Shown here: piece after piece, positions 11,946 to 59,244 of the stretch
Numbering within the stretch: position 1 is the first letter of the stretch
How the letters are laid out: each line of letters opens with the position of its first letter
IMG/VR virus record: IMGVR_UViG_3300044557_000107
Span: 64,001-128,000 of that record
DNA: 64,000 bases
Source of the DNA: a virus
Taxonomy: Duplodnaviria; Caudoviricetes
Strand: one strand, 5' to 3'
Position numbers and translations under genes: made by a program
The notes under the pieces: generated by a model
Told to the model about the DNA's origin: nothing
Database searches by the model: none
Seen by the model: only the letters and a program-made list of their open reading frames with translations

Positions 11946-11967
11946 CCAATAAAGACAAAGACTAACA

Positions 11968-12080
11968 TGGGCTGGGGCAGCCCTTAGTAAATAGCCATAA
12001 CCTCTATTTAGTACTCTAGTAGTATTAAACAAGTATGTGGTGTTCCTAGAAACCTGTGTTTTTAAACACAGTGTAGTTCA
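11968..12080 (+). ncRNA. omegaRNA/reRNA scaffold of tnpB-1 (guide begins ~12081, TTTCGGACGAGCAACATC)
   Basis: Hairpin-rich region after tnpB ending in GTAGTTCA; covarying homologues at 39.0 and 39.6 kb; 5' end uncertain and may overlap the CDS. Confidence 0.8.
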
Positions 12081-15056
12081 TTTCGGACGAGCAACATCTC
12101 CCGAAAATTTACCCCACCAATAACTTGTAGTCGCATCAAATTTTGAAAGCCCTGTTGAAGTATTATCAGCAATACACATGTTATTACCGATATATATTCC
12201 TACATGCCCCCGGGTTCCACTAGTATTCCAGAATACCAAGTCACCTTCTTTAAGATTTTTCCAGACATCACTTTTATCGCTTCCACTAACATGAGACAAC
12301 ACGGAGCTACTCCACATACTGTTTGTAGTTCCAATAGTAGAACCTGTTAGTGGATCACCAATGTCTTTATATAACCAACACATTGTGGACGAGCAATCTG
12401 CACTGGCGCCCGTTGTTGAGAATATGTCTTGGCTACCCCTACCGGCTCCTATAACATACCTAATAGACCCTTGACCATTCTTATTATAATAGCTTGTGAT
12501 TTTGCTTACAGCCGCTTGCGCCGCTGCTGTACCAGACTTAGTAGACCCATCAGATGAACTTGAATCGCTAGAGGAGCTACTAGACTCATCAACAGACCAT
12601 GCCATATTACTAAAGGTAGCTTCACCCATTAGTCCTCCTTGGAAGTCTGATGATTGCCCCCATAGGTTATTAAACCGATATTGGCCACTTTGGGGAAGAC
12701 CTCTAGTAACACCAAGGGTAGTTTCCCAACCGGACTGAAATGAGAAGCTATGAGAGACGGATTCAATATAAAATTCAAAGGTATCATTATAGTTATTTAG
12801 ATATACAGTAACACGGTCCCCAACTCGGTAATCTGGATGACCTACGACAACAATATCTCCGCTATAAAAATTAGGGTTATCGGCATACCAATTGAATAAT
12901 CTTTGTGTAAACTTTTTAAGGGAACTAGCAGAGCTATCTATTGTAGATGCATTAGTTGTTTTTGTAGTAGAACCTTTTACAATACTTTCTAGGTCCTTTT
13001 TAGATAGCTTATTACCTCCGTTATGATACTGATCCCATATAGCTAGTAATTCATTATCATCTACATTTTTTAGGGTGGACTTAGCTAATTTCATATAGTC
13101 TACAATGTCGCCTTTAGAATCACTAATAACCTTTTTTACATTAGACACATTTAAGGCTTTAGTTCCGGTATTAGCATATCCCCCACCTTGTGAAATGTGC
13201 ATATCGTCATTCCACTTAGTAGTAGGAAGTTGAAAGTCATTGTTGATATAATCATTAATTAAATTTACAGCCTCTTGTGCTGAAATATTATTAGCACTAT
13301 TTGTAAGGTTTTGAGCATACGTAGCTTTATTAATTCGTAATAAATTACGGTCAATAGCATTTAAGAAGGCTACAGTTGAATCATACGTGTAGGTAGTACC
13401 ATGTTCAGCACTATCCGTGTCACCTTTACTATAATCAGAATTACTACCGGATTCTGCATCACCCATGCTGAGATACTGATTAGTTTTTTCAAGGTAGCTG
13501 TACCCATACTGATCAACTAAAGTTTGATTATACTGGGGGTAGGACCCAATTGCTCCTGAGTTATTAGTGATACTGAACAAAGAGTAACTATCAGGATTTA
13601 CGTTGAATACAGAGTAAGCCTGTGCATTTGACTGGTTAACAGTAACGTTTTTTATAGACCCAGAATCAATCTCAATAGTCTCTAAAGAATTCCAATCATC
13701 AGGATCGAAAGGGGTTCTACGTACATTTACATGACACAGCCCCGTAGACTCAAATTCAAAATAGAGTTCATTGAAAGGTTCTACACGAATATCATCCATA
13801 AGTTCTAATAGAGATCCACTAAATGAGGTGTACTGAGTAGAGTCTGTTAGTTTTTCATCAACATCCCAACTTTGAAAATTACTGGTATCTAAAAAGTCAA
13901 AGATAGTTTTGGAGCCGTTATCATAACTATAGTTTATATAGGGCTTGAAACGTTCTATAATTTCATTTTCAATGGTAGCTACATCATTACCCATAAATGC
14001 AACGCCAGTACTATTCTCTTTTTCGGAGTCGATAGAACTAGAAGAAGCATCTACATTTCCTGATGTAGACCCACTGCTATCGCTACTACCAGAAGATGAA
14101 CTACTATCATCACCGGAAGAATCTCCGCCATTATACTCAGCGTAACCAGTTTCTAGGTTTTTTGTGTAATGAGCTAAGTTATCTCCAAAGTAGTTATGTG
14201 CTTTAAGAATTTGGGCAAATTGAGGAATACTAGTAGCATTTTGAACACCATCATTATAGAGAGTTGTGGCATAATCACTAGCATAAGCACTCCATGAAGA
14301 ATATTTATAGCTAGGTCCTACATGCATACCTGTTAGATTTTTAGAAGAGTATGCGGGGGCTCCTGGTTGGTCTTTTCCTCCGGATTCTGCCATGATTTGA
14401 GCAAATACATATCCCGACTTAAGCCCAATAGCTTTAGTGACGGCTTTATCAATAGCACGTGCAATAGGCTTACCGGGTCCTGCGTTAGTATCTACATTGA
14501 CCGTTATTTTTTTACCCGAGGTTGACGAAGATGTATTTGTAGAACTATCATCGCTATCACCAGATGAGCTAGATTCTGCTTCATAATCCGCATTTGTATC
14601 CCATAGCCATCCCATATTTGAAAGGTTAACTTGGGCTTCTTCAATAAGTCCTAATTTATACTGAGAGAATACTTTAGATAAGCTTTGACCCGTGATTTGA
14701 TAATATAAATTGTTATTTTCAAATTCGCCAATAATGTCTATTTCAGAAACCATGCCCACGAAAATAACATTATTATTAACAGTACCAATATTAGCACTTC
14801 CAACACCCATATTTGGATCTGCTCGAATAATAATGATATCGTTTTCATTAACAACATAATCCCACCGGTAGTCTCCAGCAAGCATAACAGAAAATGCAGG
14901 GGAATCCAACGACATATCATTTGAAGTACTCAATCCAAGCAATCCTTTAGTTAAGGTGTCATTTGATAGGGTGTCGTCTGAATAACTAATCTGGTACCCA
15001 TTAGACGAACTATGGATTTCTAATGAAAAGTTAGGAAACATTATGTTGTTTGCCAA
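12078..15056 (-). CDS. Baseplate hub / tail-associated lysin with lysozyme-like and C-terminal NlpC/P60 domains
   Basis: AQIMAESGG lysozyme-like motif; ADCSS...GDLVFW...GHVGIYIG NlpC/P60; EFYIESVSHSF hub motif. Confidence 0.85.
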   Translation of the reverse strand: MANNIMFPNFSLEIHSSSNGYQISYSDDTLSNDTLTKGLLGLSTSNDMSLDSPAFSVMLAGDYRWDYVVNENDIIIIRADPNMGVGSANIGTVNNNVIFVGMVSEIDIIGEFENNNLYYQITGQSLSKVFSQYKLGLIEEAQVNLSNMGWLWDTNADYEAESSSSGDSDDSSTNTSSSTSGKKITVNVDTNAGPGKPIARAIDKAVTKAIGLKSGYVFAQIMAESGGKDQPGAPAYSSKNLTGMHVGPSYKYSSWSAYASDYATTLYNDGVQNATSIPQFAQILKAHNYFGDNLAHYTKNLETGYAEYNGGDSSGDDSSSSSGSSDSSGSTSGNVDASSSSIDSEKENSTGVAFMGNDVATIENEIIERFKPYINYSYDNGSKTIFDFLDTSNFQSWDVDEKLTDSTQYTSFSGSLLELMDDIRVEPFNELYFEFESTGLCHVNVRRTPFDPDDWNSLETIEIDSGSIKNVTVNQSNAQAYSVFNVNPDSYSLFSITNNSGAIGSYPQYNQTLVDQYGYSYLEKTNQYLSMGDAESGSNSDYSKGDTDSAEHGTTYTYDSTVAFLNAIDRNLLRINKATYAQNLTNSANNISAQEAVNLINDYINNDFQLPTTKWNDDMHISQGGGYANTGTKALNVSNVKKVISDSKGDIVDYMKLAKSTLKNVDDNELLAIWDQYHNGGNKLSKKDLESIVKGSTTKTTNASTIDSSASSLKKFTQRLFNWYADNPNFYSGDIVVVGHPDYRVGDRVTVYLNNYNDTFEFYIESVSHSFSFQSGWETTLGVTRGLPQSGQYRFNNLWGQSSDFQGGLMGEATFSNMAWSVDESSSSSSDSSSSDGSTKSGTAAAQAAVSKITSYYNKNGQGSIRYVIGAGRGSQDIFSTTGASADCSSTMCWLYKDIGDPLTGSTIGTTNSMWSSSVLSHVSGSDKSDVWKNLKEGDLVFWNTSGTRGHVGIYIGNNMCIADNTSTGLSKFDATTSYWWGKFSGDVARPK

Positions 15057-38890: not shown

Positions 38891-39104
38891 TTGACATTCT
38901 GTTTAACTACTAGTATACTAAGAACCATAAAGAACTTAGGTAACCATAGATGCGAAAACCAAGTATCTTAATAAGTTACTTAAGGATCTTTAAGTAAACT
39001 GGGCTGGGACAGCCCTTAGTAAATAGCTGTAACCTATAGATACTTTAGAGTATCCAAGTACGCAGTGTTCCTAGAAGCTCGTCACTTTAGTAACGAGCAG
39101 TTCA
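38891..39104 (+). ncRNA. Stand-alone omegaRNA cassette A (promoter + scaffold; guide from ~39105 CTGCCCACCAGTACCTCC)
   Basis: TTGACA-17-TATACT promoter; 39000-39104 is homologous to the tnpB-1 omegaRNA with compensatory changes and ends AGTTCA. Confidence 0.8.
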
Positions 39105-39273
39105 CTGCCCACCAGTACCTCCTGTCAAGGGTTATTGAAAACTGGTGTAAAACTAATATGTCGCGTCCAGTAATATGACTGGGGTGGGATGACTAAGGGT
39201 TGACACCTAACAAGACTGTCCGTTATCCTACATATTAGCAGGTAACCTTTGAGAGGCTTTGGGTTACCACAAT

Positions 39274-39527: not shown

Positions 39528-39740
39528 TTGACATTCTGTTAACTAGGGGTATACTAAAAACTATAAAGAACTTAGGTAACCATAGATGCGAAAACCAAGT
39601 ATCTTAATAAGTTACTTAAGGATCTTTAAGTAAACTGGGCTGGGACAGCCCTTAGTAAATAGCTGTAACCTCTATGTGCTTTAGGGTACTCAAGCATGCA
39701 GTGTTCCTAGAAGCCCGTTACTTTAGTAATGAGTAGTTCA
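39528..39740 (+). ncRNA. Stand-alone omegaRNA cassette B (promoter + scaffold; guide from ~39741 CGGAGGACATATAGTTTG)
   Basis: Near-duplicate of cassette A from GTTGACA to AGTTCAC, then sequences diverge completely. Confidence 0.8.
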
Positions 39741-39755
39741 CGGAGGACATATAGT

Positions 39756-56854: not shown

Positions 56855-56930
56855 AAAGAAGTTACTCAAAATAAATTGGGTGACTTCTTTATTTTTGTGT
56901 TGACAACGAGTATCAGTGTGCTAGTATAAT
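56855..56930 (+). promoter_or_regulatory. Terminator + sigmaA promoter cassette driving the Cas12f-like gene
   Basis: AAAGAAGTTACTCAA...TTGGGTGACTTCTTT hairpin, then TTGACA (56900) and TG-C-TAGTAT/TATAAT; same layout as 47901-47980. Confidence 0.7.
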
Positions 56931-56958: not shown

Positions 56959-58347
56959 ATGAAAGAAAAGTTAAACAAGGGGATTAAGGTCAGAATATTT
57001 CCTAATGAAGAGCAAGTGGGACAAATTAGATTATCATTTATGTGGGCACGGAACTTTTATAACTATCTGGTTGAATACCAGAAAGACTACACCAAAGCTA
57101 TCTGGATTATGCGAGATCGAGAAGGTGGATATAGAAAAGATAAGAATGGTAAAGTTATACTATTTGACAAGAAGGGTAATGAAAGTAAAACTGGTAAACC
57201 TCAGTTTAAGTATAAGGGAAATGTATATCTAAGTAAGTTTGACTTGATGAAGTTAGCTTCACCTTATCGAAAGTTTCATAAAGATGCAGGTGCAAGTAAG
57301 GTGGACAGCCACGTTTATGAAATGACGGCCACTTCATTTTATCAAGCGATTCAAAATCAATATAATCCTAGAATGATTAATGCAAAAGCACCTAAGAAGC
57401 ATAAATGGGTTACTTCATATACTAGTAGATACACACAAGCGTCTAAGTTTTCATCAACAAAGAAAAGTGGTTCTGTTCCAAGCATGTATAGTGTAACAAA
57501 ACATTGGGTAAAGGTACCAAAGTTAGGCATGGTTAAATACTCTGGTTCACAATCATTGAAAAATATTAAGCCAAAGAACTTTACTATTACAGAGGATAAA
57601 ACAGGTAAATTCTACATGAGTATTATTATTGAATATCATAAGGATATTAAATCTGTTAAGCCTGTAAAAGTAGTTGGGATTGACTTAGGGTTAGATACTC
57701 TAGCTATTACTAGTGAGGGTAAAAAATATAAGATTATTCCTTTCACTAAGAATCATGAAAGAACCCTAGCAATTAAGAGCAGAAAAGCAAGTAAGAGAAG
57801 ATTATTCATGGAAACGGTTATTGGATCTTCTAAGAATAAGGCAAAGCTGTTTCCACTTACTCAACATGATTTTCCTAGTGTTAATGAAGCATACAGGGGA
57901 AGAGCTTTAGTATATAAGCACACTGCAAATCAACGAAATAACTATCTTCATGAAGTAAGTAGAAGCATTGTAGATTCTGCTGATGCAGTGGTTGTAGAAG
58001 ACATTACCGCTAGTTTCATGATGAAGGGTGGTAAAAGTAAGAAAACAGGTCGTAAGACTAAGAATAAGAGCGCCAAGAGTGCTAGTAATGCTAGTTGGAA
58101 CAAGCTATTAGTATATCTAGAATACAAGTGTAAGGAAGATGGAAAACAGTTTATTAAAGTAAGCAAAAACTATACTAGTCAGATTTGCCATGATTGTGGT
58201 TATTTATATGAAAACTTGGGTGTACCAAATGGTGGTGACAATCGTTCTGTTCGTGAATGGGACTGCCCTAAATGTGGGAAACATCATGATCGTGACATTA
58301 ATGCGGCTATCAATATTAAAAATAGAGGGTTAGAAGTTATTGATTAA
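56959..58347 (+). CDS. CRISPR-adjacent TnpB-derived RuvC nuclease (Cas12f/TranC-like), 462 aa
   Basis: KVRIFP; GIDLG, VEDI, CHDC/CPKC, DRDINAAINI intact; longer than the other two TnpBs; followed by leader and array. Confidence 0.85.
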   Translation: MKEKLNKGIKVRIFPNEEQVGQIRLSFMWARNFYNYLVEYQKDYTKAIWIMRDREGGYRKDKNGKVILFDKKGNESKTGKPQFKYKGNVYLSKFDLMKLASPYRKFHKDAGASKVDSHVYEMTATSFYQAIQNQYNPRMINAKAPKKHKWVTSYTSRYTQASKFSSTKKSGSVPSMYSVTKHWVKVPKLGMVKYSGSQSLKNIKPKNFTITEDKTGKFYMSIIIEYHKDIKSVKPVKVVGIDLGLDTLAITSEGKKYKIIPFTKNHERTLAIKSRKASKRRLFMETVIGSSKNKAKLFPLTQHDFPSVNEAYRGRALVYKHTANQRNNYLHEVSRSIVDSADAVVVEDITASFMMKGGKSKKTGRKTKNKSAKSASNASWNKLLVYLEYKCKEDGKQFIKVSKNYTSQICHDCGYLYENLGVPNGGDNRSVREWDCPKCGKHHDRDINAAINIKNRGLEVID

Positions 58348-58362
58348 TTTTAAAAATAAGTA

Positions 58363-58391
58363 TTGACATAAGGATTATTAAGAGGTATTAT
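58363..58391 (+). promoter_or_regulatory. sigmaA promoter for tracr/leader and array
   Basis: TTGACA-17-TATTAT 15 nt after the nuclease stop codon. Confidence 0.75.
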
Positions 58392-58397
58392 AATAGA

Positions 58398-58650
58398 TGT
58401 AAGTAAGTCATAAGGTTAATCAAGCCTACTAAGAAGTGCAAGTCTTCTAATGACTATATGGGGTTTCTCAATCCTTGGTTAACTACGGGTTCCGTGAGCT
58501 ATAGATGTTTTATAGACACTACTCAGCATACCCTAAAAACATGATAGGTGTTAATCAAAGCTCAATTTATTGAGTGGGTAATAGCCTATTGAGACCTAGA
58601 CATTTTAATAGTATAAGTATACTAAATAGGGTTTATTAGTCTTAATAACT
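58398..58650 (+). ncRNA. Putative tracrRNA / scaffold-leader
   Basis: ~250 nt non-coding with several hairpins; TTCTCA (58465-70) and CATACCCTA (58527-35) are complementary to the repeat 3' end TAGGTATGAGA. Confidence 0.55.
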
Positions 58651-58885
58651 CCCTAGTATGTACTCAAAATGTACTAGGTATGAGATAATTGTAACATAAA
58701 TTTAATTTACTACTTACCCTAGTATGTACTCAAAATGTACTAGGTATGAGATGGGCGGTTCACTGGTGTTTATGTACAGTGACTCTAGTATGTACTTAAA
58801 ATGTTACTAGGTACAAGACATTATGTTTGATACGTATTTTAAGGCGTTCCCCTCGTATATATCCAAAATGTGCTAGGCATGAGGT
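58651..58885 (+). CRISPR. Mini CRISPR array: 4 repeats (36/36/37/36 nt), 3 spacers of 30 nt
   Basis: CCCTAGTATGTACTCAAAATGTACTAGGTATGAGAT exact at 58651 and 58717, degenerate at 58783 and 58850; hairpin CCTAGTA/TACTAGG; spacers unique. Confidence 0.88.
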
Positions 58886-58920
58886 TTAAAATAAATAAAT
58901 AATAAGAAAGCAGGAATATA

Positions 58921-59244
58921 ATGGCAATTAGACCAGAATACTATAAAGGCAAATCAGGACATGATATTTTCTGGGATATGGAAAATGGTAAGTACCCTGT
59001 GGAATGGGCAATCGGGTTCTGTGAGATCAACGCGGATAAATATGAAAGACGCCTGGGTAAGAAAACTAAGGATACTACGCTAGACGAGGCTAAGGCCCAG
59101 ACTTACCGTGAAGAAGCTAGAAAACTCCGCGAAATTTTTGCAGACGTGCGTAACCGAGGTGTTATTGGTAGAATGTTGCATACGATAAAGATAACACTAG
59201 GGAAATTATTGGGAACACCTCGAAGAACACGAAGAAACAAGTAA
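58921..59244 (+). CDS. DUF3310-like hypothetical protein
   Basis: RPEYY...GFCEINADKYERRLGKK...DEAKAQTY. Confidence 0.65.
   Translation: MAIRPEYYKGKSGHDIFWDMENGKYPVEWAIGFCEINADKYERRLGKKTKDTTLDEAKAQTYREEARKLREIFADVRNRGVIGRMLHTIKITLGKLLGTPRRTRRNK

What the first reader, a model, noticed from the sequence alone, without database searches (positions are those of the whole stretch)
58398..58686. Separately transcribed leader with short anti-repeats: an omegaRNA split into tracr + repeat?
Seen: unlike tnpB-1 and -2, the RNA here has its own promoter downstream of the stop codon. GGGTTTCTCAAT (58461-72) can pair with ATTGAGACC (58588-96) or with the repeat end TGAGA. CATACCCTA (58527-35) matches the reverse complement of the repeat's TAGGTATG with one bulge. 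Hairpins include GCTCAAT/ATTGAGT and TAGTATA/TATACTA. Inference: the repeat may be the duplicated terminal hairpin and pseudoknot strand of an ancestral omegaRNA, with the leader supplying the rest of the scaffold. Pairings are short, so this is tentative.
Basis: partly seen in the sequence, partly recalled or inferred. Interest (0 to 1): 0.7.

Follow-up and report, generated by a model that had tools for sequence, protein, structure and literature searches.

The report
Phage TnpB guide RNA growing an array
A large Lactobacillus-type phage carries a transposon-derived DNA cutter (TnpB) whose guide-RNA gene has its own promoter and is followed by a small CRISPR-like array, and each repeat copies the last hairpin and docking strand of that guide RNA, so it looks like a stage in how CRISPR arrays arise from transposon RNAs.

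Summary
As bare pairings they are no better than chance: the span has four 7-bp complementary pairs, and shuffles give 4.5.

Comparison with 70 ordinary TnpB guide RNAs (omegaRNAs) gives them meaning. The leader is a true omegaRNA homologue (covariance model E=0.003; a family-specific two-block motif occurs once in 64 kb and in no shuffle). It keeps stem 1, the linker and stems 2-3, plus a UUUA-capped terminal hairpin.

The canonical pseudoknot (stem-1 loop GRA with tail UUC) is re-coded here to UCUC with GAGA. GAGA occurs once in the leader (58591-94) and again just before the spacer in repeats 1 and 2. Repeat 4 has GAGG there, which keeps the core GAG; repeat 3 has AAGA.

Three points differ:
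- The omegaRNA is not cleanly split; the leader keeps its own terminal module.
- CATACCCTA is a conserved scaffold element, not an anti-repeat.
- A longer anti-repeat (58594-58606, 13/14, p about 0.02) was missed.

This is a phage-borne variant of the published TranC / type V-U kind. Trans use of the leader is inferred, not shown. DNA of the eight close homologues could not be fetched.

The parts
56959..58347 (+). TnpB-3, a 462-aa IS605-type RNA-guided nuclease with an intact RuvC D242/E347/D444-446 and an enlarged REC region (residues about 40-178)
   Evidence: Pfam HTH_OrfB_IS605 + OrfB_IS605 + Cas12f1-like_TNB. 31% identical to tnpB-1, with 82 gap columns, most of them lying in residues about 40-178. 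Catalytic columns invariant. Closest solved structures are ISDra2 TnpB, then LaTranC.
58363..58391 (+). Near-consensus sigma-70 promoter for the RNA module
   Evidence: TTGACA-17-TATTAT, 11 of 12 matches, best in the region. No terminator between it and the gene starting at 58921.
58398..58459 (+). 5' extension of the transcript, upstream of the scaffold
   Evidence: The covariance-model match begins at 58442. By eye, parts resemble the 5' extension of the phage's orphan omegaRNA genes; this was not tested statistically. 58414-24 is complementary to the linker at 58474-83.
58460..58475 (+). Stem 1 (G60-U65 with A70-U75) with loop UCUC at 58466-69, the 5' strand of the pseudoknot
   Evidence: Aligned to canonical stem 1 GGCUAG-GGA-CUAGCC. 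The loop is GRA in most canonical copies.
58476..58526 (+). Linker UGGUUAAC and stems 2-3 of the omegaRNA scaffold
   Evidence: GTTCCGTGAG (58489-98) and ACACTACTCAG (58516-26) are identical to L071. Stem 3 is CUAUA/UAUAG in place of UUAGG/CCUAA. The family motif occurs once in the window and in 0 of 100 shuffles. CM R1 scores 19.5 bits, E=0.0029.
58527..58543 (+).
   Evidence: CM R1 and MAFFT align it to the conserved GUUCCCAGAAGC. CM R2 instead aligns 58550-61 to that element.
58544..58589 (+). Extended terminal hairpin (AUAGG...CCUAU) whose tip CUCAA-UUUA-UUGAG (58561-74) matches canonical stem 4
   Evidence: Present in the MFE fold of leader+R1. CM R2 aligns the tip to stem 4 with the UUUA loop. 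ISDra2 stem 4 also has a UUUA tetraloop.
58590..58596 (+). Cis pseudoknot strand U-GAGA-CC
   Evidence: Complementary to the stem-1 loop. The 7-bp TCTCAAT/ATTGAGA pairing appears in the MFE fold.
58594..58606 (+). Anti-repeat ACCTAG-ACATTTT, lying where the omegaRNA guide would be
   Evidence: 13 of 14 complementary to repeat nt 16-29. The duplex of 58593-58632 with repeat nt 1-30 is -24.3 kcal/mol. Only p about 0.015-0.02 against genome windows and shuffles.
58651..58686 (+). Repeat 1: hairpin nt 2-28, linker UAU, GAGA, U
58687..58716 (+). Spacer 1 (30 nt)
   Evidence: Best match is 26 of 30 to the prohead protease gene of Enterococcus phage Revolver (E=0.5), judged to be chance.
58717..58752 (+). 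Repeat 2, identical to repeat 1
58753..58782 (+). Spacer 2 (30 nt)
   Evidence: No match in the phage's own genome, the phage collection or IMG/VR.
58783..58819 (+). Repeat 3, degenerate, 37 nt, tail AAGA
58820..58849 (+). Spacer 3 (30 nt)
   Evidence: No match.
58850..58885 (+). Repeat 4, 81% identical to repeat 1, tail GAGG (GAG kept at -5..-3)

Best explanation
The locus is a TnpB-to-CRISPR transitional system carried by a phage. The 'leader' is a promoter-driven homologue of the canonical Lactobacillaceae omegaRNA. It has become physically separate from the tnpB reading frame. Its pseudoknot is re-coded: the stem-1 loop is UCUC and the partner strand is GAGA, where all other copies have GRA and UUC.

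The array that follows consists of serial copies of the omegaRNA's terminal module (hairpin, 3-nt linker, GAGA strand), each placed in front of a 30-nt spacer.

Proposed mechanism (inferred):
1. One transcript from the promoter at 58363 carries both scaffold and array.
2. TnpB-3 binds stems 1-3 of the scaffold.
3. A repeat-spacer unit docks in trans. Its GAGA pairs with the stem-1 loop and its hairpin takes the stem-4 position. The 13-nt anti-repeat at 58594-58606 may help.
4. The spacer then lies where the omegaRNA guide lies, and it directs RuvC cleavage of matching DNA in competing phages or other invading DNA.

The first unit can also fold entirely in cis.

What is shown: homology of the leader to omegaRNA, the array geometry, and the complementarity. 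What is inferred: trans assembly, processing and targets.
For: (1) A covariance model built from 22 type-I omegaRNAs finds tnpB-1's RNA (E=8e-14) and also the leader, 58442-58570, at 19.5 bits, E=0.0029 over 128 kb searched. Stems 1-3 align with high posterior probability.

(2) The motif GTTCYGTRAG-N10-40-AYACTMCT occurs once in the window, in the leader, and in 0 of 100 shuffles. The 10-nt and 11-nt blocks are identical to L071, and stem 3 is fully compensated.

(3) All 70 canonical copies carry UUC at -5..-3, and the stem-1 loop is GRA in the copies read directly. The leader loop is UCUC. GAGA lies at 58591-94 and at -5..-2 of repeats 1 and 2; GAG is kept in repeat 4.

(4) In ISDra2, nucleotides -5..-3 pair with -103..-105, and stem 4 precedes them (PMC10097598). 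This is the same geometry.

(5) The effector is an intact TnpB with REC growth.

(6) The spacers are exactly 30 nt, unrelated to one another and absent from the phage's own genome. Repeats near the leader are identical and distal ones are decayed.

(7) There is no terminator between promoter and array, and no ORF above 28 aa.

(8) Published precedent: TranC systems, in which the right-end RNA is functionally split into tracrRNA and crRNA (Jin et al., Cell 2025, as cited in PMC13565253); phage-borne CauTranC9; TranC arrays with 32-38-nt repeats and a median of about 5 repeats (bioRxiv 10.64898/2026.03.27.714800). Arrays arising by serial duplication of omegaRNA segments were proposed in PMC10691335.
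Against: - The leader keeps its own terminal hairpin and a cis GAGA strand. This strand pairs better with the loop (7 bp) than the repeat tail does (4-5 bp), and it would have to be displaced or cut off.
- Alignment of the 3' module is ambiguous: three alignments differ.
- The anti-repeat reaches only p about 0.02.
- The scaffold fold is not unusually stable (z = -0.77).
- Repeat 3 has AAGA, which mismatches the leader loop.
- No spacer target was found, so activity is unproven.
- No adaptation gene: Cas1 is absent from the genome.
- There are no comparative data from the eight close homologues, so there is no covariation test within the family.
Confidence: 0.55

Rival explanations
1. Repeat-spacer RNAs act alone (Cas12a-like, 'condensed omegaRNA'). 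The palindromic repeat hairpin plus tail is a self-sufficient handle. The leader is only an ordinary cis omegaRNA with its own guide (58597 onward), or a plain array leader, and is dispensable for spacers 1-3.
For: - The repeat is a strong hairpin 8 nt from its 3' end (-10.3 kcal/mol).
- Nakagawa et al. proposed that palindromic repeats arose from a condensed, duplicated omegaRNA.
- The repeat loop contains CUC, complementary to the tail GAG. In repeat 3, C15>U and G32>A change together and keep this pairing.
- The leader has a complete cis module of its own.
Against: - A loop-to-tail pseudoknot across a 9-10-bp stem with a 3-nt linker is sterically implausible. This rests on general knowledge of H-type pseudoknot geometry, not on a test.
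- Repeat 4 breaks the intra-repeat pairing but keeps GAG.
- TnpB-type proteins contact stems 1-3 extensively, and TnpB-3 is closest to ISDra2 TnpB.
- It would be a coincidence for the repeat tail to match the leader's unusual loop (about 1/64 to 1/256).
Confidence: 0.2
2. The array is an inert relic: tandem duplications of the omegaRNA end, or a decaying captured array. The promoter mainly serves the downstream genes (58921 onward). At most, TnpB-3 uses the cis omegaRNA.
For: - Only 4 repeats, two of them degenerate.
- No spacer has a target.
- No Cas1.
- No terminator before the next gene.
- The phage holds many other omegaRNA copies, which suggests frequent IS605-type activity.
Against: - Spacers are exactly 30 nt and unrelated to each other, which simple slippage does not produce.
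- Repeats 1 and 2 are identical, which fits recent growth at the leader-proximal end.
- The effector is intact and enlarged. Nine distinct sequences in two protein clusters (92% and 73% identity to TnpB-3) are full length.
Confidence: 0.15
3. Classical long repeat:anti-repeat tracrRNA (Cas12f/TranC style). The 58594-58606 anti-repeat pairs with the 3' half of each repeat and opens the repeat hairpin. RNase III or the nuclease then processes the duplex. The pseudoknot plays no special role in trans.
For: - 13 of 14 complementarity, placed at the 3' end of the scaffold and directly upstream of the array.
- The duplex extends over repeat nt 1-30 at -24.3 kcal/mol, against -10.3 for the repeat hairpin alone.
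- This fits the tracrRNA search logic used for Cas12f and TranC.
Against: - p is only about 0.02.
- The anti-repeat lies 3' of a complete stem 4 and cis pseudoknot strand. It therefore does not replace the 5' strand of stem 4 as it does in Cas12f.
- The variation in repeats 3 and 4 does not discriminate between models.
Confidence: 0.2

Closest known systems
TranC (transposon-CRISPR intermediates; LaTranC, PDB 9jfo; phage-borne CauTranC9) and the type V-U* branches of Altae-Tran et al. 2023
   Same: - A TnpB-sized, TnpB-like RuvC effector with a short CRISPR array downstream.
- No adaptation genes.
- The scaffold RNA is encoded between effector and array.
- 36-nt repeats and about 4-5 repeats.
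- Occurrence in a phage has precedent.
   Different: - The protein is nearer to ISDra2 TnpB (E=5e-26) than to LaTranC (E=1e-12), and it forms its own small family: two clusters, with the next relatives at about 40% identity or less.
- The scaffold here is still a recognisable, apparently complete omegaRNA with a cis terminal module.
- The repeat is a palindromic hairpin, not the single strand of a repeat:anti-repeat duplex.
- Membership in a named TranC clade could not be tested because no clade sequences were available.
ISDra2 TnpB omegaRNA / reRNA (PDB 8h1j; PMC10097598)
   Same: Stems 1-4, a UUUA tetraloop on stem 4, a pseudoknot between an upstream loop and nucleotides -5..-3 beside the guide, and the guide at the 3' end.
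   Different: - The RNA does not overlap the reading frame and has its own promoter.
- The pseudoknot sequence is re-coded.
- The terminal module is reiterated four times with different 30-nt guides.
scoutRNA of Cas12c/Cas12d
   Same: A separately encoded scaffold RNA that would hold the crRNA by only a few base pairs.
   Different: The effector families are unrelated in sequence at this level. The resemblance is a lead from memory and was not tested.
omegaRNA arrays of Sigma-TnpB loci (PMC10691335)
   Same: Reiteration of omegaRNA-derived units so that one nuclease serves several guides.
   Different: There the whole omegaRNA (over 60 nt) is repeated and the protein is nuclease-dead. Here only the 36-nt terminal module is repeated and RuvC is intact.

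Membership tests
IS200/IS605 TnpB protein | HTH + OrfB_IS605 (RuvC) + zinc-ribbon TNB domains with the catalytic D-E-D | tested here: met
   Pfam E=1e-24, 2e-11 and 2e-5. D242, E347 and D444/D446 are invariant in A2. Best fold matches are 8h1j and 8iaz.
Canonical Lactobacillaceae omegaRNA (type I) | Match to the family covariance model and conserved blocks (stem 1, UGGU linker, GUUCYGURAG, AYACUAC) | tested here: met
   19.5 bits, E=0.0029. The motif is unique in the window and absent from 100 shuffles. Alignment A5.
Canonical Lactobacillaceae omegaRNA (type I) | 3' end GUAGUUCAY with UUC at -5..-3, directly after stem 4, and a stem-1 loop of GRA | tested here: not met
   All 70 canonical copies have UUC. 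The leader has loop UCUC and tail GAGA, with GGGUAAU at the canonical tail position under the R2 alignment.
Canonical Lactobacillaceae omegaRNA (type I) | Starts inside or immediately after the tnpB reading frame | tested here: not met
   The scaffold starts 113 nt after the stop, behind a promoter. tnpB-1's RNA starts 4 nt after its stop.
CRISPR array | At least 3 direct repeats separated by unique spacers of constant length | tested here: met
   4 repeats of 36-37 nt and 3 spacers of 30 nt.
CRISPR array | Spacers match foreign genetic elements | tested here: inconclusive
   The only hit is a 26/30 match (E=0.5), and read in the protease gene's reading frame the spacer sequence contains stop codons. 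Two spacers have no hit.
TranC / type V-U CRISPR-Cas | TnpB-lineage effector stably linked to a downstream array in at least two related clusters | not testable with these tools
TranC / type V-U CRISPR-Cas | Guide RNA functionally split into tracrRNA and crRNA | tested here: inconclusive
   Complementarity exists (pseudoknot 4-5 bp; anti-repeat 13/14, p about 0.02), but the leader keeps a cis terminal module. This needs RNA and activity assays.
Cas12a-like crRNA-only system | The repeat hairpin with an internal pseudoknot is sufficient for loading | tested here: inconclusive
   The hairpin is present. Loop CUC and tail GAG are complementary and co-vary in repeat 3 but not in repeat 4. The geometry is doubtful.

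The most novel reading that the evidence does not exclude
The crRNAs keep a whole stem-4-like hairpin and join a shared omegaRNA scaffold only through a re-coded 4-bp pseudoknot (UCUC:GAGA). This private 'docking code' would isolate TnpB-3 from the eight canonical omegaRNAs (GRA:UUC) expressed by the same phage. It would be a route from omegaRNA to CRISPR that differs from the stem-4 split proposed for Cas12f, which I take to hold for TranC too. The scaffold's own guide position acts as the anti-repeat, capturing or processing the precursor.
Probability: 0.3. Interest if true: 0.75.

Novelty: new variant of a known kind. Interest (0 to 1): 0.6.

Why it matters
How type V CRISPR arrays arose from transposon guide RNAs has mostly been inferred from phylogeny and from one structural study of TranC. 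This locus shows three things in a single transcript unit: a recognisable omegaRNA, serial copies of its terminal module, and a pseudoknot change shared by the scaffold and the repeats. Unaltered sister omegaRNAs in the same genome serve as internal controls. That makes 'array birth by duplication of the omegaRNA end' and the role of the pseudoknot in trans assembly directly testable with a 462-aa nuclease. It also adds a case of a phage arming itself with a miniature RNA-guided nuclease.

Tried and rejected
- **Close DNA homologues.** None found in the phage collection, IMG/VR or JGI metagenomes (one 24% relative only).
- **Tools unavailable.** The contigs of the eight Logan homologues could therefore not be read, and no covariation test within the family was possible.
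- **Rfam.** It has no matching family; only tRNAs scored.
- **Direct sequence similarity.** Similarity of the leader to the tnpB-1 and tnpB-2 flanks by local alignment was not significant. The homology appeared only with a family model.
- **Second model.** A covariance model from type-II copies gave only 7.7 bits (E=0.25) and a different 3' alignment.
- **Spacer and guide targets.** No self-targets. The Revolver match to spacer 1 was rejected: the 18-nt seed occurs 55 times in IMG/VR, and read in the protease gene's frame the spacer sequence contains stop codons.
- **'Repeat 0'.** A degenerate direct copy of the repeat at 58595-58641 was considered and dropped. Direct similarity scores 14, well within background.
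- **Cas1.** Absent from the genome.
It suggested that a host type II-A machinery fills the array. This was not tested.

Full report
**Setting.** The window is bases 64001-128000 of a 139,820-bp viral record with direct terminal repeats. Three observations point to a large phage of lactobacilli:
- TnpB relatives are found in Lactobacillaceae phages and genomes.
- One short stretch is 84% identical to Lactobacillus phage Lbab1.
- The omegaRNA types match those of Lactobacillaceae.

**Locus anatomy**.
- A terminator lies at 56855-90 and a promoter at 56900.
- ORF 56959-58347 encodes a 462-aa TnpB-family protein.
- Fifteen bases after its stop comes TTGACA-17-TATTAT (58363-91, 11 of 12 matches).
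- About 250 nt follow without any ORF above 28 aa.
- Then come four direct repeats (58651, 58717, 58783, 58850) separated by three 30-nt spacers.
- Repeats 1 and 2 are identical. Repeat 3 has five substitutions and one inserted T. Repeat 4 is 81% identical.
- No terminator separates the promoter from the array or from the next gene at 58921.
- The genome holds no second array, no self-target of the spacers and no Cas1.

**Checking the observation.** As isolated pairings they carry no weight. The span 58398-58686 contains four perfect 7-bp complementary pairs, and shuffles give 4.5 +/- 2.8. The scaffold's folding energy is ordinary (z = -0.77).

Leader 58593-58632 can pair with repeat nt 1-30 (-24.3 kcal/mol). 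The core is ACCTAG-ACATTTT (58594-58606), complementary to repeat nt 16-29 at 13 of 14 positions. This too is only moderately unusual: 1.5% of genome windows and 2% of shuffles do as well.

**What the leader is.** I collected 80 ordinary TnpB loci from Lactobacillaceae and Bacillaceae genomes and extracted the RNA region at the 3' end of each gene. They share a well-conserved omegaRNA:
- stem 1 (GGCUAG-GGA-CUAGCC);
- a UGGUAAAAG linker;
- covarying stems 2 and 3, flanked by GUUCYGURAG and AYACUAC;
- GUUCCCAGAAGC;
- a stem-4 hairpin with a UUUA or UUCA loop;
- an invariant GUAGUUCAY tail directly before the guide.

A covariance model of the type-I group recovers tnpB-1's RNA (11949-12081, E=8e-14). 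It also hits the leader, 58442-58570, at 19.5 bits and E=0.0029 for the whole window on both strands. Stem 1, the linker and stems 2-3 align with high posterior probability.

The blocks GTTCCGTGAG (58489-98) and ACACTACTCAG (58516-26) are identical to those of a Lactobacillus kefiranofaciens copy (L071). Between them, stem 3 has changed from UUAGG/CCUAA to CUAUA/UAUAG, a full compensation. The degenerate family motif occurs once in 64 kb, at 58489-58523, and in none of 100 shuffles. Homology of the leader to the canonical omegaRNA is therefore secure.

**The pseudoknot.** In the solved ISDra2 complex, nucleotides -5 to -3 next to the guide pair with an upstream loop about 100 nt away. This forms a pseudoknot that stacks on stem 1. 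Stem 4, with its UUUA tetraloop, lies directly before that strand (PMC10097598).

In all 70 canonical copies examined (62 bacterial and 8 in this phage), -5..-3 is UUC. The stem-1 loop is GGA, GAA or GGG in the copies read directly.

In the leader, stem 1 (G60-U65 with A70-U75) carries the loop UCUC (58466-69). The complementary GAGA occurs at 58591-94, just after a long hairpin (58544-58589) whose tip CUCAA-UUUA-UUGAG matches canonical stem 4.

The same GAGA stands at -5..-2 of repeats 1 and 2. It is preceded by the repeat hairpin and a 3-nt linker (UAU, where the canonical RNA has GUA). Repeat 4 keeps GAG at -5..-3. Repeat 3 has AAG.

So both strands of the pseudoknot differ from every other copy yet remain complementary, and the repeats carry the new code in the canonical register. 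For a fixed register the chance of this is about 1/64 (3 nt) to 1/256 (4 nt).

- CATACCCTA (58527-35) is not an anti-repeat. The type-I covariance model and MAFFT place it on the conserved GUUCCCAGAAGC element, which pairs with the UGG of the linker.
- The omegaRNA is not cleanly split. The leader still owns a terminal hairpin and a cis GAGA strand, so it could act as a normal single-molecule omegaRNA whose guide begins near 58597. That 'guide 0' has no target in the phage genome. Its first bases are the 13-nt anti-repeat.

The exact alignment of the 3' module is unresolved. The type-I model and MAFFT align 58528-40 to GUUCCCAGAAGC. The type-II model aligns 58550-61 to it and the UUUA hairpin to stem 4, leaving GGGUAAU at the canonical tail position.

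**The protein.**
- TnpB-3 has the three TnpB Pfam domains and invariant D242, E347 and D444/D446.
- It is 31% identical to tnpB-1. Its 84 extra residues (82 alignment gap columns) lie mostly in the N-terminal REC region, with an 11-residue insert after RuvC-II and 7 extra residues in the zinc finger.
- Sequence and predicted-fold searches put it nearest ISDra2 and ISFba1 TnpB, then LaTranC, Fanzor2 and Cas12f.
- REC growth is the trend described for TnpB lineages that became Cas12.
- Only two close clusters exist among 5.8 billion proteins, at 92% and 73% identity and holding nine sequences, one of them the window's own. All are from Logan assemblies, except that the window's own is also in JGI/IMG. 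The next relatives are about 40% identical over the C-terminal 60%.

**Mechanism.** The best-supported reading has four parts:
1. One transcript carries both scaffold and array.
2. TnpB-3 binds the scaffold.
3. Repeat-spacer units use the scaffold in trans through the UCUC:GAGA pseudoknot, with the repeat hairpin in the stem-4 site, and the anti-repeat may help capture or processing.
4. The first unit can fold wholly in cis.

I give this 0.55. The main obstacle is the competing cis module in the leader. Rivals are:
- self-sufficient hairpin crRNAs (0.2; supported by a loop/tail co-change in repeat 3, weakened by geometry and by repeat 4);
- an inert relic array (0.15);
- a classical long repeat:anti-repeat tracrRNA (0.2, overlapping with the best reading).

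No spacer target was found. The best match, 26 of 30 to the prohead protease gene of Enterococcus phage Revolver, is probably chance.

**Relation to what is known.**
- The idea that the omegaRNA is a natural single-guide RNA that gave rise to tracrRNA plus crRNA, or to condensed palindromic repeats, was stated by Nakagawa et al..
- Array birth by serial duplication of omegaRNA segments, and 40 V-U branches, were described by Altae-Tran et al..
- TranC systems gave the experimental case for functional RNA splitting (Jin et al., Cell 2025, known here only through citing papers).
- A phage-borne TranC with a 5-repeat array has been reported in a preprint.

The present locus belongs to that kind. 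What is unusual is that the ancestral omegaRNA is still legible and apparently complete, the repeats are hairpin modules, and the pseudoknot code has been changed in scaffold and repeats together. I rate it a new variant of a known kind, interest 0.6.

Noticed in passing
window 38981-39105 (+) and 39617-39741 (+); outside the window, genome 39137-39262 (-), 48883-49007 (-), 62001-62125 (+): Five orphan omegaRNA genes (E about 1e-12 to 1e-16) with no adjacent tnpB. Each sits behind a shared cassette holding a sigma-70-like promoter (TTGACA/TTGATA ... TATACT), an LE-like hairpin and an ~60-nt stretch shared by all five directly ahead of the match. Each is followed by a different guide. They may be PATE-like mini IS605 elements or domesticated solo guide genes for tnpB-1-type nucleases.
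   Followed up: partly
genome 10489-10614 (-) and 130062-130195 (+), outside the window: Two further canonical omegaRNAs lie directly after tnpB-like reading-frame ends (...NAAINILQAS).
   Followed up: no
58414-58424 vs 58474-58483 vs 58550-58560: GGTTAATCAAG in the 5' extension and GTTAATCAAAG before stem 4 are near-duplicates. Both are complementary to the linker CTTGGTTAAC. This could be an alternative-pairing switch between the unprocessed and the mature scaffold.
   Followed up: no
58337-58354 and 58885-58902: An 18-nt, 89% complementary AT-rich inverted repeat brackets the whole promoter-leader-array cassette. It may be chance, or it may mark the edges of an inserted module.
   Followed up: no
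repeat 3, 58783-58819: C15>U in the hairpin loop and G32>A in the tail change together, keeping loop-tail complementarity (CUU:AAG) while breaking the match to the leader loop.
   Followed up: partly
58687-58716 (spacer 1): The first 18 nt are identical, and 26 of 30 overall, to the antisense strand of the prohead protease gene of Enterococcus phage Revolver and an IMG/VR relative. Read in that gene's frame the spacer sequence contains stop codons, and the 18-mer is common in IMG/VR.
   Followed up: yes
58079-58154 (+), inside the tnpB-3 ORF: Weak type-II omegaRNA model hit (8.7 bits, E=0.13) with a stem-1-like UAGUU-GGAAC-AAGCUA. Probably chance.
   Followed up: no
58927-58899 (-): Promoter-like site (TTGCCA-17-TATTAT, 10 of 12 matches) pointing back into the array. 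It could give antisense transcripts.
   Followed up: no
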